DNA from: Dehalococcoidia bacterium
GTDB taxonomy: Bacteria; Chloroflexota; Dehalococcoidia; SM23-28-2; RBG-16-64-32
Length of the DNA: 64,000 bases
Assembly (NCBI GenBank): GCA_030649945.1
Contig: JAUSFE010000050.1
Span: 1,859 to 65,858, forward strand
Reading direction: 5' to 3'
Of this stretch, positions 389 through 63,834 are shown piece after piece. Every line of letters starts with the position of its first letter. Positions within the stretch are counted from its first letter, which is position 1. Both the position numbers and the translations under genes were made by a program. Below the pieces are notes generated by a model that searched no databases, was not told where the DNA came from, and worked only from the letters and a program-made list of their open reading frames with translations.

Positions 389-738
389 CAGTCTGTCTCC
401 CTCCCTTTTACCGCCGGCAGCACGCGGTCGCGGTACGCCTGTAGCTCCGCGCGCAGGTGCGCCATCTCGCGCTCCATCTGGCGCAGGCGCTCGTTCATGC
501 GCATCACGACCTCGGCGCCGGCCAGGTTCAGGCCCAAGTCCTGCATCAGGCGCTGGATGTAGCGCAGACGGTCGACATCGGACTGCGAGTAGAGGCGGAC
601 GCGCCCGCGGGAGCGGCTGGGGCTGATGAGGCCCTGGCGCTCGTAATTGCGCAGGCTCTGGGCGTGCATGCCGACCATGCGGGCGGCCACGCTGATGACG
701 TAGCAGGGCTCGTGGTCCGGGTTGCGTTCGTCTACCAT
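388..738 (-). CDS. hspR: MerR-family heat-shock transcriptional repressor HspR
   Basis: 116 aa. N-terminal MerR HTH (YVISVAARMVGMHAQSLRNYERQGLISPSRSRGRVRLYSQSDVDRLRYIQRL). Lies immediately downstream of dnaJ on the same strand, the classic dnaJ-hspR arrangement. Confidence 0.85.
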   Translation of the reverse strand: MVDERNPDHEPCYVISVAARMVGMHAQSLRNYERQGLISPSRSRGRVRLYSQSDVDRLRYIQRLMQDLGLNLAGAEVVMRMNERLRQMEREMAHLRAELQAYRDRVLPAVKGRETD

Positions 739-15449: not shown

Positions 15450-15599
15450 GAGGGCGCCTCCAAATGCCTACACAAAGTATCGCCCGCCTCCGGCGGACGG
15501 GCGCCGCTGGGGCGGGGCCGCTCTGCATTATAGGCCGGGGGCGATTCTGGGGTCAATGAAATGGCGGCGCAGATGGCGTCTCAGAAGATTCATGGTTTA

Positions 15600-16000
15600 T
15601 CCGGCAAGACGGCACCTTGAAGGGTGTGGCATCAGGAGGCTATCGCTGCCGCAGCCTTCAGGCTGCGGTCTAAGTGTAGTGTCTCAAGAACAGCCTTACC
15701 ACGGCGCACCCTTGAAGTGAGAGACGGTACACGAGGGGTTCGGGCGCGCCATCGTCCCTCGCTCGCAGGTCTGCCCCACCCCAGATCCCTTCGCGAAGCT
15801 GCGCAGAGCCACGTGGCAGATGTCGTCTCGCTCAGGATGACGGACGGGATGGCGCCGCGCCTGCCTACCGCAGGCAGGCTCAACGTACCACGGGATACAG
15901 TCAAGGTATTTTGGAGACGGTACAATAGTAAGACCACACCCTTCAGGGTGTGGCATCAGGGGGCTATCGCCGCCGTCGGCTTCAGGCTGCGGTCAACTAC
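15600..16000. repeat. two direct copies (about 15617-15680 and about 15940-16000) of a roughly 60-bp element with two perfect hairpins (CACACCC-TTCA-GGGTGTG; GCAGCC-TTCA-GGCTGC), plus a copy of dispersed family R4 (CCCCAGATCCCTTCGCGAAGCT)
   Basis: Seen in the sequence. Region is non-coding and lies between rpmH and the ileS leader promoter. Confidence 0.5.
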
Positions 16001-16110
16001 GCCGTCACGTCGCCCCCGTTCGGTAACCCTACCCTTGAGGCAACGGCTTTCCTTCGGTAACCGTTATTATGAGGCAGATCGTAACCGTTTAAGTGAGGCA
16101 GATCGGCTGT

Positions 16111-16139
16111 TTGACAGCCCGCCCGGGCATGCCTACACT
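16111..16139 (+). promoter_or_regulatory. sigma-70-like promoter TTGACA-17bp-TACACT driving the ileS leader
   Basis: Consensus -35 hexamer, 17-bp spacer, near-consensus -10; about 410 nt upstream of the ileS ATG. Confidence 0.5.
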
Positions 16140-16145
16140 AGGGTC

Positions 16146-16440
16146 ACAATCGAACAACAAAGGCGAAGACGGAGACGAGTACGGCGCGCGGGGCCGGCCA
16201 GCGAGTCCCGCAGGGTGCGAGGGGACGCGGAGCCGCCGCCCGAAAATCACTCCCGAGCCGCCGACCGAACAGCGCCCCGAAGCGCCCAGTAGACTCGGCC
16301 GGAAGCCACCGTTAGCAGAGGCAGGCGTATAAGTCCGCCACCGGCGGGCCGTATGCCGGAATGAGCGTCCCCGCCTGAGGCGGGGAAATCAAGGTGGTAC
16401 CACGGGCAGAAGCTCGTCCTTTTGGGACGGGCTTTTTTGT
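16146..16440 (+). promoter_or_regulatory. T-box riboswitch leader (Ile-specific candidate) with intrinsic terminator, upstream of ileS
   Basis: T-box consensus AATCAAGGTGGTACCACGGG at about 16386-16405. This is immediately followed by the terminator hairpin GCTCGTCC-TTTT-GGGACGGGC + TTTTTTGT (16412-16439). Candidate specifier AUC-A at about 16246. Confidence 0.55.
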
Positions 16441-16555
16441 TGGGGAAGGAGCGAGAAGTCATGCAATCAAGCAATCATGCAATCAAGCAATCAACGCGCG
16501 TCGTCTCGCTTGATCCGATGATCGCATGCTTGCCTGATCGCCGAAGGAGCGCGCT

Positions 16556-19792
<3,237 letters not shown>

Positions 19793-20664: not shown

Positions 20665-20990
20665 CGGGGTGCTGAAGAACGAGTCCTACAAACTTTTGTG
20701 TCTTCGTGTCTTCGTGGTGAGAATTCCCAGGGATCAACACGAAGGCACTACGACACAAGAGGGGTTCCTTATACAAGGGCTGGCTCTCCCCCGCCCCGCC
20801 CCGGTTGGACGCACCTGAAGGTACCTCCCTACTTTGGTGCCTTTGTGTCTTCGTGTCTTCGTGGTGAGAACTCCCAGGGATCAACACGAAGGCACTAAGA
20901 CACAATAGGGGTTCCTCATCCAAGGGCTGGGTCTCCCCCGCCCCGCCTCGGTTGGAGGCACCTGAAGGTACCTCCCTACGGGAATCCGGC
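20661..20990. repeat. two tandem copies of an about 140-bp MITE-like unit (families R7 GGTGCCTTTGTGTCTTCGTG and R3 CACCTGAAGGTACCTCCCTAC), preceded by an R2 terminal repeat (CTAGCGGGGTGCTGAAGAACGAG)
   Basis: Direct repeat copies near 20690-20830 and 20830-20975. Each has an internal inverted repeat GTGTCTTCGTG...CACGAAGGCAC. Confidence 0.8.
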
Positions 20991-21018: not shown

Positions 21019-22353
21019 CTACTCCAGCGGCCAGACGTCGCAGCGCATCAGGTCGTCGTAGTCCTCGCGGCGGCGCATCAGCTTCGCCTCGCCGTCGGCG
21101 ACGAGGACGACGGCCGGGCGCAGGGAGGCGTTGTAGTTGCCGGCCATGGCGAGGGCGTAGGCGCCGGCCGCGGGGATGGCCAGGATATCGCCCGGCGCAA
21201 GCGGCGGCAGCTCGGCGTCGCGCAGGAGGACGTCGCCGGACTCGCAGTACTTGCCGGCCACCGTCACCGTCTCCCGCCGCTCGTCCCGCACGCGGTTGGC
21301 GACGAGCGCGGCATACTGCGAGCCGTAGAGCGCCGGGCGGATGTTGTCGGCCAGGCCGCCGTCCACGGAGACGAAGCGCATGACGCCGGGCACCTCCTTG
21401 GACGAGCCGACGGTGTACAGCGCCACCCCCGCGCGGGCGACGATGGCGCGGCCGGGCTCGACGAAGAGCTTCGGCAGCGGCAGGCCGTACTCCGCGCAGG
21501 CCTTACGCAGGCCCGAAACCACGATCTCGGCGTATTCGTCCGGTTGGGGCGCCTCCTGGTCCGGCACGCAGGTGACCGCGAAGCCGCCGCCGGGGCTGAA
21601 CTCGCGCATCTCGAACCCGTAGGCCTTGCGCATGCGTGCCGCGAACTCCAGCACGACGGCCACGGCCTGCGCGAACGGCGCCAGCTCGAAGACGGGGGAG
21701 CCCAAGTGCACGTGCAGGCCGGCGAGGTCGATGCCGGGCAGGTCCAGCGCCTGGCGGACGGCGGCCTCCGCCTGGCCGGTGGGCAGCGGGATGCCGAACT
21801 TGTTCTCCAGGGTACCTGTCGTCGTGTAGGCGTGGGTGTGCGGGTCGATGCCGGGAGAAAGGCGGAGGAGCGCGGTCTGGCGGCCGCCCCGGCCCTGCGC
21901 CAGGCCGTTCAGCATCTGCATCTCGTGGAAGTTGTCTATGACCACGCGGGCGACGCCGTAGTCCAGGGCCTCGCGCAGCTCCTCTTCCGACTTGTTGTTG
22001 CCGTGGAAGTGGATGCGCTCCGGCGGGAAGGCCACGGAGCGGGCGATGGCCAGCTCGCCGCCGGAGACCACGTCCAGGTCCAGCCCCTCCTGCATGACGA
22101 TGCCGGCCAGGGCGCGGCCGAGGTAGGCCTTGGCGGCATAGGCGACGGCGGTGTCCGCGTAGCGGGAACGGAAGGCGGCGAGGAAGGTTCGGCACTGGCC
22201 CCGCAGCGTCTGGTCGTCGAAAACGTAAAGGGGCGTGCCGAACTCGCGGGCGAGCCCGACGGCGTCGCAGCCGCCGAGCGTCAGGTGGCCGGCCTCGTTG
22301 ACGGCGGCGGTGACGGGGAGGACCGTGGCGAGGGGGAGCTCCTGCGTCTGCAT
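21019..22353 (-). CDS. lysA: diaminopimelate decarboxylase
   Basis: PLP-dependent fold III decarboxylase: AYAAKAY (Lys), HVGS-like HVHLGSPV, GGGF (SPGGGFAV), EPGRAIVA, CESGD. Start at MQTQELPLAT. Confidence 0.9.
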   Translation of the reverse strand: MQTQELPLATVLPVTAAVNEAGHLTLGGCDAVGLAREFGTPLYVFDDQTLRGQCRTFLAAFRSRYADTAVAYAAKAYLGRALAGIVMQEGLDLDVVSGGELAIARSVAFPPERIHFHGNNKSEEELREALDYGVARVVIDNFHEMQMLNGLAQGRGGRQTALLRLSPGIDPHTHAYTTTGTLENKFGIPLPTGQAEAAVRQALDLPGIDLAGLHVHLGSPVFELAPFAQAVAVVLEFAARMRKAYGFEMREFSPGGGFAVTCVPDQEAPQPDEYAEIVVSGLRKACAEYGLPLPKLFVEPGRAIVARAGVALYTVGSSKEVPGVMRFVSVDGGLADNIRPALYGSQYAALVANRVRDERRETVTVAGKYCESGDVLLRDAELPPLAPGDILAIPAAGAYALAMAGNYNASLRPAVVLVADGEAKLMRRREDYDDLMRCDVWPLE

Positions 22354-22584
22354 GGTGAGGCGATTATACAAGCGAGAGCGGGGCGCAGGCGACAACATTC
22401 GGGGTGTCTTCCTCCGCTCGCCCTACGAGTGCCTCAGGGCGAGCGGGACGGGGCTCAGTGCGAGGCCAGAACGGGTGTGCCTCGCCCCCCCCGCACCTAC
22501 GCCACCGCAGGGGGCTCCTTCCCGCTCATGGTGAGGCGCTCACACCATGAGCGGAGGTGGCCCAGAGCGCAGCATGCTGCGCCC

Positions 22585-24668: not shown

Positions 24669-24813
24669 GTTATCATGCGGGTTCAGGAGCCAGGAACAAT
24701 AGATACCGTGGATGGCGATACCGAACCCCAGCTTGAGGGCATGTCCACCCTCTTCGATGCCCCCGCCTTCAGGCGGGGGTGCAGCCGAGCAACAGGGCAC
24801 ACGGAGGACTCCT

Positions 24814-36662: not shown

Positions 36663-36875
36663 CGGCGCGCGGCAGGGAACTGGGAGTCAGGAGCTGGGAA
36701 CTAGGAGCCGCCCCGCCCGCGCACGCCGTCACGCGCAGAACGCCGTAGGGGCGCACGGCGTTCGCCCCTACGTTTGCGTTGGGCCGTCGCCTGCCGCGTA
36801 AGGCCGGGCGGTTGACAGCGAGTGGGCCGGCGGTATGCTTGTAACGCGTCCCGCTTCGGCGCATGGAGGGCCACC

Positions 36876-38243
36876 GTGGAACAACAGATCCGCTTCTGCA
36901 CAACAACTGACGGCGTGCGCATCGCCTACGGCACCGTGGGCCAGGGGCCGCCGCTGATCCGCGTGCTGGGCTGGTTCACTCACCTGGAGTTCGAGTGGGA
37001 GAACCCCCGCTGGCGCCGTCTTTACGAAGGCATGGCGGACCGCTTCACCTACATCCGCTACGACGGAAGGGGGATGGGTCTTTCCGACAGGGACGTGACC
37101 GACTTCTCGTCGGATGCCTTCGTGCATGATCTGGAAGCGGTAGTCGATGCCACGGGTTTTGAGAGGGTCGCGCTCTACGGCATCTCTCAGGGAGGTCCTA
37201 CGGCCATCCTCTACGCTCTGCGCCACCCGGAGCGCGTCAGCCACCTCATAATCTACGGCTCCGCCGTTCGGTCTACCTGGCCTGAAGAGCAACAGGAGAT
37301 GATGCTGTCCCTAATCCGCCAAGGCTGGGGCAGCGACGTCCCTGCTCACCGTCAGTTCTTCACTGGCCTGTTCATGCCTGACGGTGATATGGAGGCGATT
37401 CAGGCGTTCAACGAGATGCAGCGGGTGTCGGCCTCGGCCGAGAACGTTGCGGCGATGCTCACGCCGCCGCCGGAACTCCCTCCATTCGATCTTAGAGAAT
37501 TGCTGCCTCAAGTCGCTGTGCCAACCCTCGTGATCCACCGGCGCGGCGACGCCATCGTCCCCTTCGAGGCAGGACGCGAGATCGCCGCCGGCATTCCCGG
37601 CGCCCGTTTCCTCCCTCTGGAGGGTAGGAACCACGCCGCCCTTGCCGACGCGGATCAGCCGGTCATGGAGATTATGGCCAAGGCCATCGCCGACTTCGTG
37701 GGCGAAGGCCAGCAGGCCGTCACCGCGGACACGCCCTCCGGGATGGTCACCATCCTCTTCACGGACATGGAGGGCTCTACCACCCTCACTCAGCGGCTGG
37801 GGGACGCCAGGGCGCAGGAGGTGCTGCGCGCCCACAACACCATCGTCCGCGAGGCGCTGAAGGCGCACGGGGGCAGCGAAATCAAGCACACCGGCGACGG
37901 CGTCATGGCCTCGTTCCCAACGGCCTCCGGCGCGCTGGAGTGCGCCATCGCCGTGCAGCTGGCCTTCGCCGCGCACAACGAGTCGGCCGAGACGCCCGTC
38001 CGCGTGCGCATCGGCCTGAACGCGGGCGAGCCGGTGGCGGAGGAAGAGGACCTGTTCGGCACGGCCGTGCAGCTAGCCGCCCGTGTATGCGCCCAGGCTG
38101 AGCCGGGCCGGATCCTGGTGCCGGACGGCGTGCGTCACCTGGTGGCCGGCAAGGGGTTCCTGTTCTCGGACCAGGGCGACGTCGTCCTGCGGGGCTTCGA
38201 GGACCCCGTGCGGCTCTACGAGGTGCGCTGGGAGGAGGCCTAG
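36876..38243 (+). CDS. alpha/beta-hydrolase domain fused to class III adenylyl/guanylyl cyclase catalytic domain (LipJ/Rv1900c-like), copy A
   Basis: GTG start with RBS GGAGGG. Hydrolase nucleophile elbow GISQGG. CHD motifs FTDMEGST (metal Asp), EIKHTGDG (Lys + Asp), GLNAGEP (Asn), and R in GRILV. Confidence 0.8.
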   Translation: MEQQIRFCTTTDGVRIAYGTVGQGPPLIRVLGWFTHLEFEWENPRWRRLYEGMADRFTYIRYDGRGMGLSDRDVTDFSSDAFVHDLEAVVDATGFERVALYGISQGGPTAILYALRHPERVSHLIIYGSAVRSTWPEEQQEMMLSLIRQGWGSDVPAHRQFFTGLFMPDGDMEAIQAFNEMQRVSASAENVAAMLTPPPELPPFDLRELLPQVAVPTLVIHRRGDAIVPFEAGREIAAGIPGARFLPLEGRNHAALADADQPVMEIMAKAIADFVGEGQQAVTADTPSGMVTILFTDMEGSTTLTQRLGDARAQEVLRAHNTIVREALKAHGGSEIKHTGDGVMASFPTASGALECAIAVQLAFAAHNESAETPVRVRIGLNAGEPVAEEEDLFGTAVQLAARVCAQAEPGRILVPDGVRHLVAGKGFLFSDQGDVVLRGFEDPVRLYEVRWEEA

Positions 38244-38245
38244 CC

Positions 38246-39592
38246 ATGGAACAACAGATCCGCTTCTGCACAACCTCCGACGGGGTGCGCATCGCCTACG
38301 CCACTGCAGGCCAGGGCCCGCCGCTGGTGCTGATCACCGCTTGGGTGGGTCACCTTCAGTTCGAATGGAGCCACGCCGAGACCAAGGCGTTCTACGAAGG
38401 CTTGGCGAACGGGCGGCTACTCGTTCGCTTTGACAAGCGTGGCACCGGCCTAAGCGACAGGCAGGCAGAAGACTTCTCCGTAGAGGCGCGCCTGCGCGAT
38501 CTGGAGGCGGTGGTCGATGCCCTGCGCCTGAAACGCTTTGCCCTCATGGGCTTTTCCGAGAGCGGGCCCACGGCCATAATCTACGCAGCCCGCCATCCTG
38601 AGCGGGTGACGAACCTCGTCATCTATGGCTCCTACCACCGCTGGCCGTACCCTGCAGGGGCCGCCAATCCCGTCATGGCCCTGATCCGCTCGCAGTGGGG
38701 CATGGGATCAGCGGCGCTCTCTGCCATCTTCGTTCCCTCCGGCGATCCCGCCCAGGTAGCGTGGTGGACGGAGTTGCAGCGGGTCTCGGCCTCGCCAGAG
38801 AGTGCTGCCTCTATCTTCGAAGTGAACACCGGGCTTGATGTGACCTCCGTTCTCAGTGACATCCGGGCCCCGGCCCTCGTCATTCACCGGAACAACGATA
38901 CTGTCTGCCCCTTCGATGTCGCTCGCGAGATGGCTGCCCTCATCCCGGCTGCCCGTTTCGAGCCCCTGGAAGGCGATATCCATCCCCCCATGTTCGGCGA
39001 CACTGCCGCCGTCCTCAACGCCGTAGATTCCCTGCTGCCCAGCGGCGCGCGCCGCAGGCAGGCCGTCACCGCGGGCACGCCCTCCGGCCTCGTCACCATT
39101 CTCTACACCGACATGGAGGGCTCTACCCCCCTGACCCAGCGACTGGGCGACGCCAAAGCGCAGGAGGTGCTGCGCGCGCACAACACCATCGTCCGCGAGG
39201 CCCTCAAGGCGCACGGCGGGTCCGAGATCAAGCACACCGGCGACGGCGTCATGGCCTCCTTCCCAACGGCCTCCGGCGCGCTGGAGTGCGCCATCGCCGT
39301 GCAGCAGGGCTTCGCCGCGCACAACGAGTCGGCTGAGACGCCCGTCCGCGTGCGCATCGGCCTGAACGCGGGCGAGCCGGTGGCGGAGGAAGAGGACCTG
39401 TTCGGCACGGCCGTGCAGCTGGCGGCGCGCGTCTGCGCCAGGGCGGAGCCGGGGCAGGTCCTGGCCTCGAACGTGGTGCGTGAGCTGGCCGCCGGCAAGG
39501 GGTTCCTGTTCTCCGACCAGGGCGACGTGGTCCTGCGCGGCTTCGAGGATCCCGTGCGGCTGTACGAGGTGCGCTGGCAAGCGGCGGGCTGA
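38246..39592 (+). CDS. alpha/beta-hydrolase + class III cyclase fusion, copy B
   Basis: Starts 2 nt after the copy A stop. Hydrolase elbow GFSESG. The CHD region is about 95% identical to copy A (LYTDMEGSTPLTQRLGDAKAQEVLRAHNTIVREALKAHGGSEIKHTGDGVMASF...). Confidence 0.8.
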   Translation: MEQQIRFCTTSDGVRIAYATAGQGPPLVLITAWVGHLQFEWSHAETKAFYEGLANGRLLVRFDKRGTGLSDRQAEDFSVEARLRDLEAVVDALRLKRFALMGFSESGPTAIIYAARHPERVTNLVIYGSYHRWPYPAGAANPVMALIRSQWGMGSAALSAIFVPSGDPAQVAWWTELQRVSASPESAASIFEVNTGLDVTSVLSDIRAPALVIHRNNDTVCPFDVAREMAALIPAARFEPLEGDIHPPMFGDTAAVLNAVDSLLPSGARRRQAVTAGTPSGLVTILYTDMEGSTPLTQRLGDAKAQEVLRAHNTIVREALKAHGGSEIKHTGDGVMASFPTASGALECAIAVQQGFAAHNESAETPVRVRIGLNAGEPVAEEEDLFGTAVQLAARVCARAEPGQVLASNVVRELAAGKGFLFSDQGDVVLRGFEDPVRLYEVRWQAAG

Positions 39593-41028
39593 TGGACGCG
39601 CCGCCCATCCAGTACGCGAAGACCGCCGACGGCGTCAGCATCGCCTTCTGGACGCTCGGCGAAGGCCCCCCGCTCGTGATCCTGCCCAACCTGACCGCCA
39701 GTCACGTGCAGGTGGAGTGGGAGTGGGACGTCCGCCGGATCGCCTACCAGCGGCTGGCGCAGCACGCCACGGTCATCCGCTACGATTGTCGCGGCCTGGG
39801 GCTGTCTCAGCGCGATTGCCCCGACTTCTCCGCCGAGGCAGGGGGCCTCGACCTGGAGGCCGTCGTTGACCGCCTCGGCCTGGAGCGCTTCGCCATCTAC
39901 GGCTCCGACTCCACGGGCGACGTAACTTTCGCCTTCCCCGCCGGCCATCCGGAGCGGGTGAGTCACTTGATCATCGGCGTGCCGCATATCCAGCGCGGCT
40001 TCCGCCGCCGCCTGGCCGCCGTTCAGCCGCTCATTGATCAGGACTGGGAGCTGTTCATCGAAATCTTTCCGCGGCTCGCGGGGGGTTGGGACAGCCCCCA
40101 GGCGGCCCAGGTGCCGGCTGTGATGATGGGTACGCACACGCCCTCTAGCTTCCGCTCGGCTCTCGACGCGATGGCCGCCTTCTCGCCGGAGCCCTACCTG
40201 GCGGCTATTCAGGCGCCGTCGTTGATCATGCACCCGCTGCAGAGCGGCCGGGACAACCGGACAGCGCGAGTGCTGGCGGGCGCTATCGCCGGCGCTCACA
40301 TGGTAGGAATCCCGGGCTGGCCGCTCGCCTCAACACTCAACGAGACGGCCGTTGCGGCCATCCTGGACTTCATCAATACCGCGCCGGCCGCGCCGGGCCA
40401 CGCGATCCCCGCGCCGCAGATAGACATCAGCGCCGTCCGCACCATCGTCTTCACCGATGTCGAAGGCTCCACGGCGCTCAATGAGCGGCTCGGCGACGAG
40501 GGCGCCCGGGAGGTCCTGCGCGAGCACGAGCGACTGACGCGCGAGGCGCTCGCGTCGCACGGCGGCTCCGAGGTGAAGGCGATGGGCGACGGCTTCATGG
40601 CCTGGTTCCCATCGGCGACGCGCGCTGTGGAGTGCGCCATCGCCTTACAGCAAGCGTTTGACGAACGTAATCGGAAGGTAGGGGCGCAGCAACATGAGCC
40701 AAGTAGGAAGGATATCGAATCGTCTTCCGATGTTGCTGCGCCCCTACGCACCGCCTCCCGGCCACGCCTCGACACGCCCGAACCGATCCGCGTCCGTATC
40801 GGCATCAACGCCGGGGAGCCAATTGCCGAAGGAGACGACCTCTTCGGCGCATCGGTGATCACGAGCGCCCGCATCACCGCGCAGGCGAAGGGCGGCCAGA
40901 TCCTGGCTTCGGACGTGGTGCGCCAGCTCCTCGCCGGCAAGGGGTTCCTCTTCTCCGACCAGGGCGACGTCGTCCTGCGCGGCTTCGAGGACCCCGTGCG
41001 CCTGTACGAGGTGCGCTGGCGCCAGTAG
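39592..41028 (+). CDS. alpha/beta-hydrolase + class III cyclase fusion, copy C (carries an in-frame REP-element insertion in the CHD)
   Basis: ATG overlaps the copy B stop (TGATG). CHD motifs FTDVEGST, EVKAMGDGFMAWF, GINAGEP. The hydrolase GxSxG motif is degenerate (YGSDSTG). Extra 30 aa (KVGAQQHEPSRKDIESSSDVAAPLRTASRPRLDTPEP) relative to A/B/D. Confidence 0.8.
   Translation: MDAPPIQYAKTADGVSIAFWTLGEGPPLVILPNLTASHVQVEWEWDVRRIAYQRLAQHATVIRYDCRGLGLSQRDCPDFSAEAGGLDLEAVVDRLGLERFAIYGSDSTGDVTFAFPAGHPERVSHLIIGVPHIQRGFRRRLAAVQPLIDQDWELFIEIFPRLAGGWDSPQAAQVPAVMMGTHTPSSFRSALDAMAAFSPEPYLAAIQAPSLIMHPLQSGRDNRTARVLAGAIAGAHMVGIPGWPLASTLNETAVAAILDFINTAPAAPGHAIPAPQIDISAVRTIVFTDVEGSTALNERLGDEGAREVLREHERLTREALASHGGSEVKAMGDGFMAWFPSATRAVECAIALQQAFDERNRKVGAQQHEPSRKDIESSSDVAAPLRTASRPRLDTPEPIRVRIGINAGEPIAEGDDLFGASVITSARITAQAKGGQILASDVVRQLLAGKGFLFSDQGDVVLRGFEDPVRLYEVRWRQ
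40683..40752. mobile_element. REP-like palindromic element (GTAGGGGCGCAGCA...TGCTGCGCCCCTAC, long loop) inserted in-frame inside cyclase copy C
   Basis: Same palindrome arms as the intergenic REP copies at 19843, 22568, 43255 etc. Replaces the short ESAETP linker present in copies A and B. Confidence 0.7.
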
Positions 41029-41131
41029 GGGCGAACCGCCGTTCGCCCCTACGTTTGCCTTGCGTCTTCGCCTGCCTCCACCGCACCCGGCCGGTAGCCG
41101 CGCGGCATTTGACACGGTTGCGACCAGGAGT

Positions 41132-42535
41132 ATGATTCACGGTGCGGAGTGGCGTGAAAACGAAGTGAACCCATCGATCCAGTACGTGCACACGGCTGAT
41201 GGGGTCGCCATCGCCTACTGGGCCCTGAACGAGGGGCTGCCGCTGGTCTATGCGCCCATTATCCCCTTCAGCCACATTCAGCTGGAGTGGCAGATCCCGC
41301 AGTGCCGCCGCTGGTACGAGCAGCTGGCCGGCCACCGGCAGTTGATCCGCTATGACGCACGCGGCTGCGGCCTCTCGGAGCGCGACGTCTCGGACTTCTC
41401 GCTGGACGGGCTCGTCCTGGACCTGGAAGCGGTGGCAGACGGCTTGCACCTGGACAACTTCGCGCTGTTCGCCTCGTCTGACGCCTCGATGATGGCGATC
41501 GCTTACGCGGCGCGGCACCCGGATCGCGTGTCGCACCTGATCCTCTGGAGCGCGTGGGCGCGGCGAGAGGACGTCTCGCGGTCCGCGCAGGCGCGCTCGC
41601 TGCGCGCCGTCCTGGAGCAGGACTGGACCATCTACACGGAGACCGTGGCGCGCGTGCTGATGGGCTGGGCTGCGGAAGGGCCGGCGCGCGAGTTCGCGGC
41701 CTTTTACCGGGCGTGCACCAGCGCGGACGCCGTTCGCGCGCTGGCGGCGTCCGCCTACGAGACCGACGTGTCGGCTCTACTCCCCCAGATCAGGTGCCCG
41801 ACCCTGGTGGTGCACCGCAGCCACATCCCCGGCGTGGGCCTGCCCGTTGTGCGCGACCTGGCGGCCCGCATCCCCAACGCCCGCCTGGCGCTCCTGGAGG
41901 GGTTGTCTCCGCTGCCCTTCTTGGAAGACACGCAAGCGGTTGTACGGGCCATTCAGGTGTTCTTGGGGGAAGAGCCGGAAGACGATGCGGCCGCGCCGGA
42001 TGTCGCGGGCCGGGCGATCGCCAGCGCACCCGTCACGATCCTCTTCACGGACATGCAGAGCTCCACCGCCATGACGCAGCGCCTGGGGGACGCGCGGGCC
42101 CAGGACGTGCTGCACGTGCACAACAGCATCGTGCGGGCCGCGCTGAAGCGGCTGGACGGGTCGGAGGTCAAGCACACGGGGGACGGCATCATGGCCTCGT
42201 TCGCTTCGGCGACGAGAGGGCTGGAGTGCGCCGTCGCCATCCAGCGGGCGCTGGCCACCCACAACGCCTCTGCGCCGGACGGCGCGATCCACGTGCGTAT
42301 CGGCCTGAACGCCGGCGAGCCCGTGGCGGAGGAGTCGGACCTCTTCGGAACGGCAGTCCAGATCGCCGCGCGCGTCTGCGAGCATGCGGAGCCGGACCAG
42401 ATCCTGGTGTCGAACGTCGTGCGCGAGCTGGCGTCCGGGAAGGGGTTCCTGTTCTCGGACCGCGGCGACAGTGTGTTGCGCGGCTTCGAGGACCCGGTGC
42501 GGCTGTTCGAGGTGAGGTGGTCGCCCGGCGACTAA
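41132..42535 (+). CDS. alpha/beta-hydrolase + class III cyclase fusion, copy D (most divergent)
   Basis: Start approximate (internal ATG giving MIHGAEWRENEV...; the ORF-track TTG at 41060 lies within a REP hairpin). CHD motifs FTDMQSST, EVKHTGDGIMASF, GLNAGEP. Hydrolase nucleophile motif lost (FASSDAS). Confidence 0.75.
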   Translation: MIHGAEWRENEVNPSIQYVHTADGVAIAYWALNEGLPLVYAPIIPFSHIQLEWQIPQCRRWYEQLAGHRQLIRYDARGCGLSERDVSDFSLDGLVLDLEAVADGLHLDNFALFASSDASMMAIAYAARHPDRVSHLILWSAWARREDVSRSAQARSLRAVLEQDWTIYTETVARVLMGWAAEGPAREFAAFYRACTSADAVRALAASAYETDVSALLPQIRCPTLVVHRSHIPGVGLPVVRDLAARIPNARLALLEGLSPLPFLEDTQAVVRAIQVFLGEEPEDDAAAPDVAGRAIASAPVTILFTDMQSSTAMTQRLGDARAQDVLHVHNSIVRAALKRLDGSEVKHTGDGIMASFASATRGLECAVAIQRALATHNASAPDGAIHVRIGLNAGEPVAEESDLFGTAVQIAARVCEHAEPDQILVSNVVRELASGKGFLFSDRGDSVLRGFEDPVRLFEVRWSPGD

Positions 42536-44939: not shown

Positions 44940-45025
44940 CCTACGGTCGGGTGGATGGAGGTTGGAGGTTGGACGTTGGATGGCTGAATCCGGTCCAACC
45001 TCTATTCTCCAACCTCTAACTTCTA
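44940..45025. repeat. imperfect long hairpin built of GGTTGGAGG repeats (family R6) in the groES-groEL intergenic spacer
   Basis: GGAGGTTGGAGGTTGGACGTTGGA...TCCAACCTCTATTCTCCAACCTCT; the same family is inserted in purM at about 63000-63060. Confidence 0.6.
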
Positions 45026-45026
45026 A

Positions 45027-45852: not shown

Positions 45853-46124
45853 GCGCAAGAGACAGGGTCATGGGGGCGGGAGGCAGGCCTGCCTGGCCGG
45901 CAGGCAGGCGCTAACCGGTGGCGAGCAGGACTATCGCCGCCCGCGCGTTGCCCGGGACCGCCCCACGCCACCCCGTAGGGAGGCACCCTTCGGCAGGCTC
46001 AGGGCAGGCTCTGAAGGTACCTCCCTACGGGAATCTGGCGGACTCAGCTCGCGCTGCGCGTTCCGCTTCCTCACCCCGGCGCGGCGCCGCCAGCGGGGGG
46101 CCGGCTGCCGCCTGCCAGCCCCCG

Positions 46125-50029: not shown

Positions 50030-50500
50030 TGCGATTATACGGGAGGCAGGAGGCGGGAAGTAGGAAGCGGGAAGGGGGAAGGTTCACCACGAAGACATAA
50101 AGGCACCAAGCTTGCAGATTACTCGCGCGATTCTTCCCTTCCGGCCAGAATGACAATGCCAGGGGAAAGTGGCACTAGACCCGGCGACCGAAGTCGATCC
50201 TGGAGTTCATCGGCCAGCGCCCTCAGAGTGGCCGTTGCCGCCTGTCATCCTGTCCGCAGACAGGATCCGGCGGGGCGGTGGGGTGTAGCTGCGGTTCGAC
50301 ATGATGTAAACGTGGTAGCGGCGGCTGGATGTATGGCTCATGCCTTCACAGTTGCGGTGCGTTCGCGCACCCCCACCAGATTCTGGCTGCGGCCAGAATG
50401 ACAACGATCTGCCACACCCCTTCTGTTTTATCGGAGAAACGCAAGATACAAGAATGACAGAAGGGGAGGGACGAGAACTCGTTTCCAGCACCCTGATAGC
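50030..50500. repeat. about 470-bp non-coding spacer composed of dispersed repeat families R7 (CCACGAAGACATAAAGGCACCAAG), R4 (CCAGAATGACAA x2, AGAATGACAG) and an R2 terminal repeat (GGACGAGAACTCGTTTCCAGCACCCTGATAG)
   Basis: Each motif has near-identical copies elsewhere in the window (51655-51725, 54390, 54620, 6446). Confidence 0.6.
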
Positions 50501-51630: not shown

Positions 51631-51767
51631 GTCCGCCGGTAACCACTAAGGCACGAAGACACAAAGGCTTCTCTTGTGCTCCAGTGCTGTATGTCTGCAA
51701 GCTTGGTGCCTTTGTGTCTTCGTGGTCCCCGGAAAAAGGCCCCCTCATTCCTTATTTCAGCACCCTG

Positions 51768-54236: not shown

Positions 54237-54710
54237 AGACGCCCCGGCGGGGCGTCTCAGGCGCTCGTAGTGGGTACGCCGCGCTGTCTGCCCTGCGCCC
54301 CGACCACCTGGCTTCACCTCCCCACCGCCCCAGATTCCTTCGCGAAGCTACGTGTCAGCCGCGCTCAGGCGCCATCTCGCTCAGAATGACAGGGTGCGTT
54401 CGCACGGCGCTCATTACCCGCGCAGCAGCGGTGGTAGAGACGCCCCGCCGGGGCGTCTCAGGCGCTCGTCGTGGGTACGGCGCGCCGTCTGCCCTGCGCC
54501 ACGGCCGCCTGGCTTCACCTCCCCACCGCCCCAGATTCCCCTTCGGCTGCGCTCAGGGCAGGCTTCGCGAAGATGCGCCTTCGCTCCGAAGGATGTCGAT
54601 ACCGCTCAGAATGACAGATCGTGCGTCGCGGCGCCGCCGCCGGGTGCGGTGAGGCCGGCGCTCAGAACGACGAAGGCCGCCGGGAGGGCGGCCTTCGCCC
54701 GGTTGTCAGC
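54237..54710. repeat. about 200-bp tandem duplication (units starting near 54233 and 54432) carrying the perfect hairpin GAGACGCCCCGGCGGGGCGTCTC and R4 motifs. The second unit has a nested R5 insertion (CTTCGGCTGCGCTCAGGGCAGG). Ends with the terminator hairpin AAGGCCGCC-GGGAG-GGCGGCCTT
   Basis: Direct repeats seen in the sequence, between the convergent FtrC-like and desulforedoxin genes. Confidence 0.7.
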
Positions 54711-60306: not shown

Positions 60307-61917
60307 TTAGTGCCGGAAGGCCCGCGTGCCGGTGAAGACCATGGCCACGCCGTACTCGTTGCACACCGCCACCGCCTCCTCGTCACGGACGCCGCCGCCG
60401 GGCTGGATGACGGCGGTGACACCCGCCCGGCACGCCGCCTCGACGGCGTCGCCCCGCGCGAACGGGAAGAAGGCATCGGACGCGAGCACCGCGCCCTGCG
60501 CCCGCTCGCCGGCGCGCTCGATGGCCTGCTGCGTGGGCCAGAGGCGGTTGGGCTGGCCGGCGCCGATGCCGACGGCGGCCCCGTCGCGGGCGACGACGAT
60601 GGCGTTGGACCGGACGTGCTTGAGCGCGGTCCAGGCGAAGCGCAGGTCCGCCAGCTCGCCGGCCGTGGGGGCCCGCTTTGTGACCACGCGCAGCTCCAGT
60701 TCGTCCGCGCGGCGGGTGTCCCGCTGCTGGACGAGCATGCCACCGATGATGCTGCGGTATTCGAGCGCCGGGCTCCCGCGCTCCGCCTCCCCTTTGGACA
60801 GACCTGAAGGTGTGTCCCTACGGTTGCTCGCGGGCGCTGCTGCTCCTTCGATGAGCAGGATGCGCAGGTCGCGCCGTTTTCGCAAGCGCTCCAGGGCGGC
60901 GGCGTCGTAGGCCGGCGCGACGATGATGTCGTAACGCTTGCCCTTCATCGCCTCGGTCATGTCCCAGGTGACGGGGCGGTTGGCGGCGATGATGCCGCCG
61001 AAGGGCGAGACGGGATCGCAGTCATAGGCACGCTCGTAGGCGACGGCGATGTCGGCGTGGGAGGCGATGCCGCAGGGCGTGGCGTGCTTGACGATGACTA
61101 CCGTGGGGCCGGCGAACTCGGTGGCCGCGCGCCAGGCGGCGTCGGCGTCGAGGTAGTTCAGGTAGGACATCTCCAGGCCGTGCAGGCGCTCCGCCGCCAG
61201 CAACCCCGTGGCCGGCCCCGGGGCGTCTTCCCGGTAGAGCGCCGCCTTCTGGTGGGGGTTCTCGCCGTAGCGCAGCTCCGCCGCCTGCTGGAGGCCGACC
61301 GTGACCTGCGGCGGAAAGAGCGGCTCGCCCGCGCGCAGATACTGCGCGATGGCCGTGTCGTAAGCGGCGACGTGCTGGAAGGCCTTGGCGGCGAGGCCCC
61401 GGTGGTACTCCGCGTCATCGGGGCTGGGGCCCTGATCTACGGAAGCGCGCAGGTGGTCCAGGGCCTGCTCATAGTCGGCGGGGTCTACGACGACGAGGAC
61501 GGACGGGTGGTTCTTGGCGGCGGCGCGCAGCATGGCCGGCCCGCCGATATCGATGTTCTCCAGCGCCTCCTCGACCGTGACGCCGGGCCGGGCGATCGTT
61601 TCGCGGAAGGGGTAGAGATTGACGCAGACGAGGTCTATGGGCGGGATCTCGCTGCGGCGCAGCTCCTCCATGTGCTCCGGCTTGTCGCGCCGGGCCAGGA
61701 TGCCGCCGTGGACCATGGGATGCAGCGTCTTCACGCGGCCGTCCAGGATCTCCGGGAAGCCGGTGAGCGACGAGACCGAGTGGACGGGGAGGCCGGCCTC
61801 CTCCGCCAGGTAGCGCTGCGTGCCGCTGGTGGAGTAGATATCGAAGCCCAGCTCCGCCAGGCCGAAGGCGAACTCCTTGAGGCCGGTCTTATCGTAGGGC
61901 GCGAGGAGGGCGATCAT
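60307..61917 (-). CDS. purH: bifunctional AICAR transformylase / IMP cyclohydrolase PurH
   Basis: MGS-like N-terminal domain (MIALLAPYDKTGLKEF...), KTLHPMVHGGIL, C-terminal AICARFT domain; carries an about 20-aa in-frame insert (see repeat at 60775-60850); the ORF-track 5' extension to 62244 is rejected. Confidence 0.85.
   Translation of the reverse strand: MIALLAPYDKTGLKEFAFGLAELGFDIYSTSGTQRYLAEEAGLPVHSVSSLTGFPEILDGRVKTLHPMVHGGILARRDKPEHMEELRRSEIPPIDLVCVNLYPFRETIARPGVTVEEALENIDIGGPAMLRAAAKNHPSVLVVVDPADYEQALDHLRASVDQGPSPDDAEYHRGLAAKAFQHVAAYDTAIAQYLRAGEPLFPPQVTVGLQQAAELRYGENPHQKAALYREDAPGPATGLLAAERLHGLEMSYLNYLDADAAWRAATEFAGPTVVIVKHATPCGIASHADIAVAYERAYDCDPVSPFGGIIAANRPVTWDMTEAMKGKRYDIIVAPAYDAAALERLRKRRDLRILLIEGAAAPASNRRDTPSGLSKGEAERGSPALEYRSIIGGMLVQQRDTRRADELELRVVTKRAPTAGELADLRFAWTALKHVRSNAIVVARDGAAVGIGAGQPNRLWPTQQAIERAGERAQGAVLASDAFFPFARGDAVEAACRAGVTAVIQPGGGVRDEEAVAVCNEYGVAMVFTGTRAFRH
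60775..60850. mobile_element. family-R3-like repeat (GACCTGAAGGTGTGTCCCTACGG) inserted in-frame within purH
   Basis: Encodes the extra segment AAPASNRRDTPSGLSKGEAERGSPA, which is absent from canonical PurH. Motif matches the intergenic copies at 20950 and 46010. Confidence 0.55.
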
Positions 61918-62369
61918 CCGACGGTGATCTCCCCGCCGCCCTCTTCTTCGCCGTACTCCTCCAGGAACTCGTCCGCCACCTCTTCGTCCACCTCGCCGGT
62001 GCCGTCGCAGAGGGGGCAGGTGACCTTGCCGGGCGTGCGCTCGTCCAGGCCCTGGTACTCCATGAGCTTGCCTTGCTCCACCCAGATGTAGGTGCGGTCG
62101 GGGTCGTAGCCGCCGACGCCCTCGACCGGGTGCGCCTCCCCATCCTCCTCCACGATGTGGACCTCTCTGCGGTCGCTCAGGTGGTCGCGGAAGAAGGCTT
62201 CCAGGGCGCCGGACTCGCTCTTGGCCTCCACCTCTTCCTCCCACTCCGTCTCAGACACGTACTCCGCGTTCGCGCGGTAGAGGCGCGCGGCGGCCGTGAC
62301 CATGGACGGGTCGCGGGCGGCGGGATGGTTCACCTCGCGCTCGGCGTAGTAGATGCGGTAGGTAGGCAT
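61914..62369 (-). CDS. hypothetical acidic protein (151 aa) translationally coupled to purH
   Basis: Stop overlaps the purH ATG. C-terminal CPLCDGTG and a poly-E tail. No family assignment. Confidence 0.5.
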   Translation of the reverse strand: MPTYRIYYAEREVNHPAARDPSMVTAAARLYRANAEYVSETEWEEEVEAKSESGALEAFFRDHLSDRREVHIVEEDGEAHPVEGVGGYDPDRTYIWVEQGKLMEYQGLDERTPGKVTCPLCDGTGEVDEEVADEFLEEYGEEEGGGEITVG

Positions 62370-62406: not shown

Positions 62407-62722
62407 GCGGCGATGCCAGGAGCAAGAGTGGTTCGAACGGGCGAAGCTGGCCGGTACCGCGGTCAACTTCAAGAAGGAGGCCCATCAGCGTCGATAGGCC
62501 AAGGACCGCTCCATTCGCGTCCTCGGAGACCGAGAAGGAGGCGATGCTCGAGTGCCCTTCGCGGCGGAATGTGGCGTAAGAATCAGAAAGCCCCAGTTCT
62601 TCCACGAGTGCGCGCGGCAGGATGGCGATGGGGTGGTTCACATCAACCGTCGCATCGATGGTTGTGCAGCGTCCGGGCGATCGAGGGTTGCTGATCGTCA
62701 CCTGCAGTGTCACGTGTCCCAT
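62387..62722 (-). CDS. hypothetical protein (111 aa)
   Basis: ORF track; no recognisable motif; stop overlaps the heptanucleotide repeat. Confidence 0.35.
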   Translation of the reverse strand: MGHVTLQVTISNPRSPGRCTTIDATVDVNHPIAILPRALVEELGLSDSYATFRREGHSSIASFSVSEDANGAVLGLSTLMGLLLEVDRGTGQLRPFEPLLLLASPLLTPVT

Positions 62723-63834
62723 TCTACTCCGTTGCCCTTCACCACCTCGCCGATCTTGCGCGCCTCTGGCAACTGCGACTGCACGCCGGCCGCGTCCGCC
62801 GGCGCCACGGCCAGGACGATGCCCACGCCCATGTTGAACGTGCGGAACATCTCCTCTTCGTCGATGCCCCCGTGCTCCTGGATCAACCTGAACAGCGCCG
62901 GCACACGCCAGGCTGAGCGGTCGATGTGCACGCCGAGGCCGGCGGGCAGGATGCGCGGGACGTTGCCGGGGATGCCGCCGCCGGTAATGTGGGCGATGCC
63001 TCTGATTGGAGGTTGGAGGTTGGAGGTTAGAGGTTGGAGGTTAGACCCTTCGGCTGCGCTCAGGGCAGGGGTTGGAGGTTGGAGCAGCGGGCGCAGGTCT
63101 GGCAGGTAGCAGCGGTGGGGCGCCAGGAGGGCGTCGCCGAGGCTGCCCTCCAGGCCCGGGAAGTTCGAGTTGAGGACGGCGCGCTCGGCCCCGGCGTCGC
63201 GGTCCAGGCCCACGCCGAAGACCTTGCGCACGAGCGAGTAGCCGTTGGTGTGCAGGCCCCTGGAGGGCAGCGCCAGGAGGACATCGCCCGCGCGGATGCG
63301 GGAACCGTCAATCACCGCGTCGCGCTCGACGACGCCGACGATGAAGCCAGCCAGGTCGAAGTCACCCTCGGCGTAGGTGCCGGGCATGTCCGCCGTCTCG
63401 CCGCCCAGGAGCGCGCAGCCGGCCTCGCGGCAGGCCTCCACGCAGCCGCGCACGAGGTCGGCCTTGGCGTCGTCGCTGAGGCCGCAGTTGCCGATGTAGT
63501 CCAGGAAGAAGAGGGGCTCCGCGCCGGCCGTCAGGATGTCGTTGACGCAGTGGTTGACGAGGTCGTGGCCGACGGTGTCGTAGCGGCCGAGCAGCGAGGC
63601 GAGCTTGACCTTGGTGCCCACGCTGTCCGTGCTGGCCACGAGGACCGGCTCGCGGTAGGCGCCGAGGCGGAAGAGGCCGGCGAAGGGGCCGACGTCCGCC
63701 AGCACCTCCGGCCGGCGCGCGCTCTTCGCCAGCTCCGCGATGCGCGAAACCAGCCGCTCGGCAGCGTCGATGTCCACGCCGGCGGCGGCGTAGGAAGGGC
63801 GCGGAGTCTCGGTCACGCGCGTATTATCCCGCAA
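62710..63834 (-). CDS. purM: phosphoribosylformylglycinamidine cyclo-ligase (AIR synthetase) PurM
   Basis: AIRS N- and C-domains (VASTDSVGTKVKLA, GHDLVNHCVNDIL, GYSLVRKV, IAHITGGG); contains an in-frame repeat insertion at about 63000-63070. Confidence 0.85.
   Translation of the reverse strand: MRDNTRVTETPRPSYAAAGVDIDAAERLVSRIAELAKSARRPEVLADVGPFAGLFRLGAYREPVLVASTDSVGTKVKLASLLGRYDTVGHDLVNHCVNDILTAGAEPLFFLDYIGNCGLSDDAKADLVRGCVEACREAGCALLGGETADMPGTYAEGDFDLAGFIVGVVERDAVIDGSRIRAGDVLLALPSRGLHTNGYSLVRKVFGVGLDRDAGAERAVLNSNFPGLEGSLGDALLAPHRCYLPDLRPLLQPPTPALSAAEGSNLQPLTSNLQPPIRGIAHITGGGIPGNVPRILPAGLGVHIDRSAWRVPALFRLIQEHGGIDEEEMFRTFNMGVGIVLAVAPADAAGVQSQLPEARKIGEVVKGNGVEWDT
63000..63070. mobile_element. 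family R6 + R5 repeat (GGTTGGAGGTTAGAGGTTGGAGGTTAGACC CTTCGGCTGCGCTCAGGGCAGG GGTTGGAGGTTGGAG) inserted in-frame within purM
   Basis: Encodes RPLLQPPTPALSAAEGSNLQPLTSNLQPP between the conserved LAPHRCYLPDL and IAHITGGG; same motifs occur intergenically at 44950 and 54540. Confidence 0.6.

What the first reader, a model, noticed from the sequence alone, without database searches (positions are those of the whole stretch)
60775..60850. Third in-frame repeat insertion, in purH
PurH carries an extra AAPASNRRDTPSGLSKGEAERGSPA segment. Its DNA contains GACCTGAAGGTGTGTCCCTACGG, a variant of the CACCTGAAGGTACCTCCCTACGGGAATC family seen at 20800, 20950 and 46010.

Three independent essential genes within 64 kb carry in-frame repeat insertions. 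This argues for a genome-wide process rather than coincidence.
Basis: seen in the sequence. Interest (0 to 1): 0.55.

Follow-up and report, generated by a model that had tools for sequence, protein, structure and literature searches.

The report
REP hairpin repeat inside purH
A short selfish-type DNA hairpin repeat (a REP element, normally found between genes) sits in frame inside the essential purine gene purH, where it adds about 20 floppy amino acids to a surface loop; this is real, but it is a kind of event already described in other bacteria.

Summary
purH (60307-61917, minus strand) carries about 20 extra codons. On the coding strand they read GTAG-GGACACACC-TTCA-GGTCTGTCC plus a G-rich tail. 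This aligns over 49 nt (about 80%) with the intergenic copies at 20807-20832 and 20954-20979, and no shuffle scored as well.

The element is a GTAG-tagged palindromic repeat (REP). It has a 9-bp stem, a TTCA loop, and compensatory stem changes between copies. The same 26-mer family occurs in at least 120 metagenome contigs, often as inverted dimers. In five contigs a REP-associated tyrosine transposase gene lies on the same contig, closely flanked by copies in two.

The insert uses rare codons (GC3 0.46 against 0.93). It lies in a predicted disordered loop between two strands. It is slightly decayed (one C.C mismatch), and a 79%-identical homolog shares it, so it is an old relic.

The same PurH loop carries this hairpin in 27 of 120 Chloroflexi homologs and other repeats in many more. 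ileS and purM in this window also carry in-frame repeat inserts.

The best explanation is REP/RAYT spread filtered by selection, with survivors in permissive loops. Intragenic REPs are already known (Di Nocera 2013; Rickettsia RPEs). This is a new member of a known kind, of modest interest.

The parts
60307..61917 (-). purH (bifunctional AICAR transformylase / IMP cyclohydrolase), 536 aa, intact reading frame
   Evidence: ORF. Homologs carry Pfam PF02142 + PF01808. The PDB match to 3zzm has E 1.5e-128.
60768..60846 (-). In-frame insert, peptide AAAPASNRRDTPSGLSKGEAERGSPA (residues about 358-384). The boundaries are approximate.
   Evidence: Alignment with 120 homologs and with 3zzm. The AF2 model gives pLDDT < 50 for residues 360-380, with no secondary structure, between strands 352-355 and 385-390. 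Rare codons: GC3 is 0.455 in the hairpin part against 0.932 in the rest of the gene.
60796..60821 (-). REP core on the coding strand: GTAG tag (60821-60818), then the hairpin GGACACACC-TTCA-GGTCTGTCC. The stem is 9 bp with one C.C mismatch.
   Evidence: Hairpin scans. The DNA fold centroid keeps this hairpin on both strands. Covariation across 14 copies: 96% of cells paired, 5 of 9 pairs with compensatory change.
60773..60795 (-). Tail of the element (AAAGGGGAGGCGGAGCGCGGGAG). It is homologous to the TCCAAC-CGAGGCGGGGCGGGGGAG tail of the intergenic copies.
   Evidence: Alignments. The same hairpin plus G-rich tail composite occurs in L082 purH, L108 and L153.
20695..20979 (-). Two tandem 147-bp intergenic units. 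Each begins, on the - strand, with a family copy: 20954-20979 gtagGGAGGTACC-ttca-GGTGCCTCC, and 20807-20832 with one arm changed. They lie just downstream of a - strand decarboxylase gene (21019-22422), between convergent genes.
   Evidence: (D9).
45973..46030 (.). A family copy with the same arms (GTAGGGAGGTACC / GGTGCCTCCCTAC), but with a 24-nt second repeat nested in the loop. It folds as one long hairpin. It lies upstream of the DUF2851 domain of the adjacent ORF.
   Evidence: Sequence. Fold -24.1 kcal/mol, z -4.5. The Pfam domain starts at residue 75 of the stop-to-stop ORF.
17222..17249 (+). Another GTAG palindrome (GTAGGGGCGCTT-cgcg-AAGCGCCCCTAC), in frame in ileS. It encodes VGALREAPL within a stretch of about 13 extra residues.
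63005..63084 (-). In-frame composite repeat insert in purM. It consists of CTCCAAC/CTCTAAC heptamers flanking CCTGCCCTGAGCGCAGCCGAAGGG and adds 21 residues.
   Evidence: (I11).

Best explanation
The extra segment in PurH is a copy of a GTAG-tagged repetitive extragenic palindrome (REP) with its G-rich tail. REPs are small non-autonomous hairpin elements that multiply in a genome, most likely through a REP-associated tyrosine transposase (RAYT) acting on single-stranded DNA.

Copies land everywhere, and selection removes those that break genes. This copy survived for three reasons:
(a) It lies in a solvent-exposed, disordered loop between two beta strands of the transformylase domain.
(b) Its length keeps the reading frame.
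(c) It is read in one of the four stop-free frames of the element, the one that gives a hydrophilic Pro/Gly/Ser-rich peptide (R-R-D-T-P-S-G-L-S).

The copy is old. It has one stem mismatch, and a 79%-identical homolog shares it. It is probably neutral for the enzyme.

What is shown: family membership, hairpin architecture with compensatory changes, non-coding-like codon usage, loop location, in-frame copies of the family in other proteins, and RAYT genes on the same contigs as the family in related metagenome DNA.

What is inferred: that a RAYT moved it, that PurH is still active, and that the peptide has no function.
For: - Motif and formal alignment against shuffles.
- GTAG head, 9-bp stem and TTCA loop in the purH copy and in the intergenic copies.
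- Stem covariation: 96% of cells paired, 5 of 9 pairs changed on both sides, 0 of 500 shuffles as high, slid controls 24-40%.
- In 142 metagenome copies, the three stem positions left free by the search pattern are Watson-Crick in 128. About 1/32 of copies (4-5 of 142) would be expected by chance.
- At least 120 contigs carry the 26-mer family, often as inverted dimers.
- RAYT genes score above the NCBIfam equivalog cut-off (NF047646, 94-120 bits against 80) on five of those contigs. They are closely flanked by copies in L084 and L139.
- In-frame copies occur in an MMPL transporter, a radical-SAM/SPASM protein (two copies), a TPR membrane protein and others.
- Codon usage: 7 of 11 hairpin codons have <= 6% relative usage, and GC3 is 0.455 against 0.932.
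- AF2: pLDDT < 50 for residues 360-380.
- In the window, GTAG hairpins are strongly depleted from coding sequence.
- Literature: GTAG REPs occur in Chloroflexi and inside genes of several species (PMC3733652).
Against: - No RAYT gene is present in the 64-kb window (tblastn), so the link to a transposase in this genome is indirect.
- Only three related copies are in the window, so copy number in this genome is unknown.
- The purH hairpin belongs to the GGACA stem variant, whereas the window's intergenic copies have GGAGG stems. The source copy is therefore not in the window.
- A filled and empty pair of purH alleles, 94.9% identical in DNA, does not differ by a clean insertion: 27 nt are replaced by 69 nt. 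No target-site signature could be read.
- Recurrence at one loop in many lineages, together with compensatory stem changes in orthologous inserts (L207 vs L208), could also mean the hairpin is maintained for a reason.
Confidence: 0.8

Rival explanations
1. The hairpin in purH is functional and kept by selection. It could act as an mRNA or DNA structure (a translational pause between subdomains, an RNase or RAYT binding site, or a supercoiling site), or as a useful surface peptide. On this view the PurH loop is a conserved host site rather than a graveyard for repeats.
For: - 27 of 120 homologs carry the hairpin peptide at exactly this loop and in this frame.
- By my reading of those loop peptides, about 18 of the 27 are still consistent with an intact stem (RPSGLS or RASALS).
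- Orthologous inserts with near-identical tails differ by a C-G to G-C swap in the stem (L207 vs L208).
- Some homolog loci have no other copy within 10-20 kb (L083, L206).
Against: - Close relatives (90-97% identical outside the loop) lack it or carry unrelated repeats there.
- About 9 of the 27 copies, including the window's own and L081, are decayed.
- Compensatory change in inverted repeats can arise without selection, by template switching (PMC8794818, PMC7202029) or by conversion from other genomic copies. L208 has both stem variants nearby.
- The peptide is predicted to be disordered.
Confidence: 0.1
2. The hairpin was not inserted by transposition. It was either built in place by replication template switching in a hypervariable loop, or imported by homologous recombination or gene conversion from other purH alleles or from other REP copies.
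For: - The filled and empty alleles differ by a replacement, not a clean insertion.
- The loop content changes between proteins that are 96-97% identical elsewhere, which suggests allele shuffling.
- Template switching is known to create and perfect hairpins (PMC8794818).
Against: - The insert shares the stem, the GTAG tag, the TTCA loop and about 23 nt of non-palindromic tail with intergenic units. Local template switching would not produce that.
- The same composite occurs in intergenic DNA of other contigs (L108, L153).
- Recombination would explain spread between alleles, but not the origin.
Confidence: 0.07
3. Chance resemblance: the loop is simply a naturally variable PurH region, and the 18/21-nt match is coincidence in a repeat-rich, GC-rich genome.
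For: - CCCTACGG-type motifs are common in the window (15 exact copies).
- The best shuffle score (40) comes close to the observed 42.
Against: - 0 of 100 and 0 of 60 shuffles reach the observed values.
- The top-ranked hits are exactly the predicted family copies.
- The hairpin geometry is identical, with compensatory differences.
- Codon usage in the segment is strikingly non-native.
- The same element is at the same place in many homologs.
Confidence: 0.02

Closest known systems
GTAG-tagged REPs / REPINs mobilised by RAYTs (Nunvar 2010, PMC2817692; Bertels & Rainey 2011, PMC3116915; Ton-Hoang 2012, PMC3333891; Di Nocera 2013, PMC3733652)
   Same: - A GTAG tetranucleotide lies next to a short GC-rich stem-loop.
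- There are many dispersed copies, mostly intergenic and often downstream of genes or between convergent genes.
- Inverted dimers occur.
- RAYT genes are flanked by copies.
- Copies occasionally sit inside genes, adding 20-30 residues.
- The superfamily has been reported in Chloroflexi (T. roseum GTAG-23).
   Different: - The sequence family (GGACAGACC-TTCA-GGTCTGTCC and the GGAGGTACC variant, with a G-rich tail) is not one I could match to a described family. The paper's figures are not held.
- The host is an uncultured soil-type Chloroflexi lineage.
- Some lineages have GTAC instead of GTAG.
- The recurrent occupation of one PurH loop across many lineages has not been described, as far as I could find.
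Rickettsia palindromic elements (RPE; Ogata et al. 2000 Science, cited from memory; discussed in PMC3733652)
   Same: Palindromic repeats are inserted in frame in many unrelated, often essential genes. The proteins remain functional, and the inserts are thought to sit in surface loops.
   Different: RPE-1 is much longer (about 100-150 bp). Di Nocera classes the intragenic R. conorii repeats (RPE-4 and RPE-6) as CGTC-tagged. The host is an alphaproteobacterial endosymbiont with a reduced genome. There is no sequence relationship.
Bacterial MITEs (Correia/NEMIS, RUP, ERIC, Nezha; reviewed in PMC10969869)
   Same: Small non-autonomous repeats that can fold, are transcribed with neighbouring genes, and are occasionally found in frame in genes.
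   Different: MITEs have terminal inverted repeats and target-site duplications derived from DDE-type IS elements. Neither was seen here, and the unit is far shorter (26 nt core).
Quasipalindrome template-switch mutagenesis (PMC7202029, PMC8794818)
   Same: It explains how imperfect inverted repeats are perfected and how both arms change together without selection, as seen between orthologous purH inserts.
   Different: It is a mutational process acting on an existing repeat. It is not a dispersed element family, and it does not explain the shared tag and tail.

Membership tests
GTAG-tagged REP superfamily | GTAG tetranucleotide at one end, immediately next to the stem | tested here: met
   On the coding strand, gtagGGACACACC-ttca-GGTCTGTCC at 60821-60796. 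The intergenic copies are the same. In the metagenome scan, whose pattern allowed either tag, 132 copies have GTAG and 10 have GTAC.
GTAG-tagged REP superfamily | Short (about 8-10 bp) GC-rich stem with a small loop, and the structure conserved among copies | tested here: met
   9-bp stem, TTCA loop, one mismatch in the purH copy. 96% of cells paired across 14 copies, 5 of 9 pairs compensatory, 0 of 500 shuffles as high. 128 of 142 copies are Watson-Crick at the free positions.
GTAG-tagged REP superfamily | Many dispersed copies in the same genome, predominantly extragenic | tested here: inconclusive
   Only 64 kb of this genome is available. It holds 4 related copies and 19 GTAG-hairpin loci of several families, strongly depleted from coding sequence.
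GTAG-tagged REP superfamily | A cognate RAYT (REP-associated tyrosine transposase) gene flanked by copies of the repeat | tested here: inconclusive
   Met for the family elsewhere: RAYT at L084:690-1118 between inverted copies at 634-659 and 1139-1164, and at L139:6853-7326 between copies at 6753 and 7369. NF047646 scores are 94-120 bits against a cut-off of 80. Not met in the window: there is no tblastn hit at 1e-3.
REPIN (inverted REP doublet as the mobile unit) | Two REPs in inverted orientation, separated by a short spacer | tested here: not met
   The purH copy is a singleton, with no inverted partner in the insert. Many metagenome copies are doublets, and the MMPL gene of L139 carries an in-frame doublet.
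Rickettsia palindromic elements | Sequence similarity to RPE consensus families; a Rickettsia host | not tested
   No RPE sequences were compared. The host is Chloroflexi, judging from the closest PurH loci. The resemblance is in behaviour only: in-frame insertion in essential genes.
MITE | Terminal inverted repeats of 15-30 bp and a target-site duplication | tested here: not met
   No terminal inverted repeats or duplicated flanks are visible around the insert. The comparison of filled and empty alleles shows no duplication.
PurH (AICARFT/IMPCHase) | Both Pfam domains (MGS-like and AICARFT_IMPCHas) and a full-length alignment to solved PurH structures | tested here: met
   The alignment to 3zzm is end to end (residues 3-536). 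The only large unaligned block is the insert. Homologs carry PF02142 + PF01808.

The most novel reading that the evidence does not exclude
The loop between strands 352-355 and 385-390 of PurH may be a specific, long-lived 'safe harbour' or target for REP hairpins, and for heptamer repeats, across a whole Chloroflexi lineage. On this reading the hairpin is actively maintained, as suggested by compensatory stem changes in orthologous inserts. The reason would be that it does something at the DNA or mRNA level: for example a translational pause, a binding site for a RAYT or another hairpin-binding protein, or a seed copy that keeps the REP population alive through vertical descent.
Probability: 0.1. 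Interest if true: 0.6.

Novelty: new member of a known kind. Interest (0 to 1): 0.3.

Why it matters
It shows that REP/RAYT-type hairpin repeats are active in an uncultured, high-GC Chloroflexi lineage, and that they shape the proteins of core metabolism (purH, purM, ileS).

For annotation:
- Odd low-complexity segments such as RRDxPSGLS, VGALREAPL or SNLQPLTSNLQ in these genomes are repeat-derived, not functional motifs.
- They can distort alignments, domain calls and phylogenies.

For evolution, the PurH loop offers a natural series of filled, empty and decayed sites at 3-25% divergence. This series could be used to measure the rates of REP gain, loss and hairpin maintenance.

The phenomenon itself, REPs decorating proteins in permissive loops, is already known.

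Tried and rejected
- I tried to census the REP-encoded peptide (RRDRPSGLS and variants, alignment A3) in the 5.8-billion protein set. 
- I looked for a RAYT in the window by tblastn with the L139 RAYT and found none.
- Rfam gave no family at the insert. The window has no tRNA genes.
- I looked for a clean empty site. L204 (filled) and L205 (empty) come from the same sample and are 94.9% identical. They differ by a replacement of 27 nt by 69 nt, so no target site or duplication could be read.
- The whole 86-nt insert does not fold better than shuffles (z 0.39 and -0.11). Only the 22-nt core hairpin is meaningful.
- The second GTAG palindrome in ileS (18785-18808) aligns with native residues of T. 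thermophilus IleS, with only 2 extra residues. I do not count it as a clear insertion.
- Long ORFs spanning REP copies in high-GC metagenome contigs (L114, L126, L132, L167, L193) translate to junk-like sequences. I discarded them as spurious.
- I considered an intein, a pseudogene and an assembly artefact. All three are rejected, because the frame is intact, the segment has no intein features, and the same insert is seen in independent assemblies.

Full report
**The gene and the insert**

The region 60307-61917 on the minus strand encodes a full-length PurH of 536 aa. It aligns end to end with solved PurH structures: 3zzm at E 1.5e-128.

I aligned PurH with 120 homologs. These are 66-80% identical, and the closest genomic loci are soil Chloroflexi MAGs. 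The segment lies in a hypervariable loop between the conserved RDLRIL and LEYRS motifs. The shortest loops there have about 7-9 residues, and the window's protein has about 20 more.

**The DNA match is real and longer than reported**

- The 23-mer is at 60801-60823.
- The relaxed motif occurs four times in the window, against 0 expected.
- A local alignment of the 79-nt insert against the rest of the window ranks the 20.8-21.0 kb copies first. The score is 42. Sixty dinucleotide shuffles gave mean 29.2, sd 2.6, max 40.
- The aligned stretch is 49 columns at about 80% identity, window 60773-60821.

**Anatomy**

Read on the purH coding strand, the insert is GTAG-GGACACACC-TTCA-GGTCTGTCC-AAAGGGGAGGCGGAGCGCGGGAG. 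The intergenic copy at 20954-20979 is GTAG-GGAGGTACC-TTCA-GGTGCCTCC-AACCGAGGCGGGGCGGGGGAG.

Both copies share these features:
- a GTAG tag;
- a 9-bp stem, with one C.C mismatch in purH and one T.G pair in the intergenic copy;
- a TTCA loop;
- a G-rich tail.

The stems differ at paired positions. The copy at 45973-46030 has the same arms, with a second small repeat nested in the loop, and it folds as one long hairpin (z -4.5).

I tested the stem on 14 copies: the window copies, six purH inserts from other loci, and five metagenome copies.
- 96% of cells are paired.
- 5 of 9 pairs changed on both sides.
- No shuffle out of 500 reached the covariation score.
- Slid controls pair at only 24-40%.

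**The family outside the window**

I made one metagenome scan with GTASGGACANNSCTTCAGSNNTGTCC. The contigs range from 38 to 71% G+C.

The three stem positions left free by the pattern are Watson-Crick in 128 of the 142 copies, in six stem variants. Chance expectation is about 1 in 32.

Many copies are inverted doublets of the form GTAGGGACAGACCTTCAGGTCTGTCC..spacer..GGACAGGTCTAAAGACCTGTCCCTAC. This is the REPIN arrangement.

Five contigs also encode a small protein that passes the NCBIfam equivalog cut-off for REP-associated tyrosine transposase (NF047646, 94-120 bits against 80; Pfam Y1_Tnp). In L084 the gene (690-1118) sits between inverted copies at 634-659 and 1139-1164. In L139 it sits between copies at 6753 and 7369.

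This matches the published definition of GTAG-tagged REPs. That paper reports them in Chloroflexi, and inside genes in several species, including tRNA synthetase genes. It proposes that such inserts are tolerated in flexible linkers or loops (PMC3733652).

**Evidence that the purH segment is foreign and non-coding in origin**

- The 11 codons spanning the hairpin have GC3 of 0.455, against 0.932 for the rest of purH.
- Seven of those codons are rare, at 6% or less of their amino acid's usage in 12 long window genes: CGT, AGG, ACA, CCT, TCA, GGT and AAA.
- In every purH insert whose DNA I read, the loop serine is the rare TCA codon.

**Why it is tolerated**

An AlphaFold2 model built from 49 homologs has mean pLDDT 81.5. 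The model gives pLDDT below 50 and no secondary structure for residues 360-380, between strands 352-355 and 385-390.

The element has stop codons in two of its six frames. purH uses the sense frame that reads RDxPSGLS.

Among in-frame copies in credible metagenome proteins, this frame is the commonest: six copies, against one DRPEGLSL and one TDLKVCPY. The proteins are an MMPL transporter, a radical-SAM/SPASM protein with two copies, a TPR membrane protein, an outer-membrane-like protein, and another PurH. The sample is small.

**Age and dynamics**

The window's copy is imperfect. Homolog P0015 (L081) is 79% identical outside the loop. It has GAC ACG CCT TCA GGT CTG TTC at the same place: the same unusual ACx codon, no GTAG, and a weaker stem. 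So the insert predates their split and is decaying.

Across the 120 homologs:
- 27 carry the hairpin peptide in this loop and frame. By my reading of the loop peptides, about 18 have RPSGLS or RASALS, which imply an intact stem, and about 9 have broken versions.
- Many others carry peptides that are translations of heptamer repeats, for example GTRNKEQG = (GGAACAA)n and EEGRRKEE = (GGAAGAA)n. This is my reading of the alignment; the DNA was seen only for L001 and L083.

Turnover is fast:
- P0029 (filled) is 96% identical outside the loop to P0062 (empty).
- P0069 (hairpin) is 97% identical to P0090 (heptamer type).
- The filled and empty pair L204 and L205 comes from one sample and is 94.9% identical in DNA. 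The difference is a 27-to-69-nt replacement, not a clean insertion.

L207 and L208 have near-identical tails but differ by a C-G to G-C swap in the stem. L208 has both stem variants in nearby intergenic copies. This is compatible with three things: selection for the hairpin, conversion from other copies, or template-switch correction of quasipalindromes. The last needs no selection (PMC8794818, PMC7202029).

**The wider claim**

The window has 19 GTAG-headed hairpin loci belonging to several stem families. Only 4-6 of them lie in the roughly 80% of the window covered by GC3-supported ORFs (binomial p <= 8e-6).

- ileS carries GTAGGGGCGCTTCGCGAAGCGCCCCTAC in frame, within about 13 residues that T. 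thermophilus IleS lacks.
- purM carries a 21-residue insert made of CTCCAAC-type heptamers around a CCTGCCCTGAGCGCAGCCGAAGGG motif. A close variant of that motif sits in the loop of the 45973-46030 element.

So three core genes in 64 kb do carry in-frame repeat inserts. The pattern fits proliferation of small repeats followed by purifying selection.

**Limits**

- Only this window of the genome is available, and no RAYT lies in it.
- Copy number, and frame and strand statistics in this organism, are therefore untested.
- Transposition by a RAYT is inferred from the family's association elsewhere and from the literature.
- Enzyme activity and translation of the segment are inferred from the intact frame and conserved catalytic regions.

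**Verdict**

The feature is a GTAG-tagged REP relic in a permissive PurH loop. It is a new member of a known kind. The recurrent use of one loop across a Chloroflexi lineage is the only mildly unusual aspect.

Noticed in passing
window 63005-63084 (-), in purM (62710-63834): A 21-residue in-frame insert (PPTPALSAAEGSNLQPLTSNLQ). It is made of CTCCAAC/CTCTAAC heptamer repeats flanking the motif CCTGCCCTGAGCGCAGCCGAAGGG. The heptamer run is an inverted match to intergenic 44994-45026. Variants of the motif occur at 18961-18994, 54539-54572 and inside the 45973-46030 hairpin.
   Followed up: partly
window 17222-17249 and 18785-18808 (+), in ileS (16556-19792): Two GTAG palindromes of another stem family, both with a cgcg loop. 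The first encodes VGALREAPL within about 13 extra residues relative to T. thermophilus IleS. The second overlaps residues that align with the native protein and is ambiguous.
   Followed up: partly
PurH homologs P0001-P0120; DNA seen in L001:4036-4116 and L083:11072-11215: The same PurH loop in many relatives holds peptides that are translations of tandem heptanucleotide repeats (GTRNKEQG, GARSKEQG, EEGRRKEE, GNRKSEIG, WKTEDE), and a recurrent RGFPASA motif. The loop is a general sink for several repeat classes.
   Followed up: partly
metagenome loci L084-L203: The 26-mer GTAGGGACAGACCTTCAGGTCTGTCC is nearly invariant in contigs ranging from 38% to 71% G+C. This implies either a very wide host range or horizontal spread of one REP/RAYT system. 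The hosts were not identified.
   Followed up: no
window 16157-16424 (+): A T-box leader upstream of ileS (RF00230, 74 bits, E 5.8e-16; below the gathering score of 93). A heptamer repeat array (GCAATCA/GCAATCAA type, 16457-16493) lies between the leader's terminator and the ileS start.
   Followed up: partly
window 15648-15669, 15933-15954, 24759-24780 (+): Three more 9-bp hairpins with the same TTCA loop but unrelated stems and no GTAG head. Two of them lie in the ORF-poor stretch from about 15470 to 16150, between the rpmH side and the ileS leader.
   Followed up: no
window 725-1379: Tandem array of units of about 223 bp (3 copies, 85-99% identical) that contain CCCTACG-type motifs.
   Followed up: no
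window 36816-42535 (+): Four tandem paralogous genes with start-to-start spacing of 1346-1594 nt and repeats 62-91% identical. GTAG palindromes lie between them (36745, 41025).
   Followed up: no
window 50086-50118 and 51694-51726: A 33-nt inverted repeat, 97% complementary, flanks a 1575-nt segment. The arms share the GTGTCTTCGTG motif with the 147-bp units at 20695-20979.
   Followed up: no
window 61914-62369 (-) and L082, L083, L206, L208: A small acidic ORF (about 140-150 aa, no Pfam hit) immediately upstream of purH, overlapping its start. It is conserved in position in all related loci, within a conserved purF - BBE oxidase - (purM) - small ORF - purH - cytochrome b gene order.
   Followed up: no
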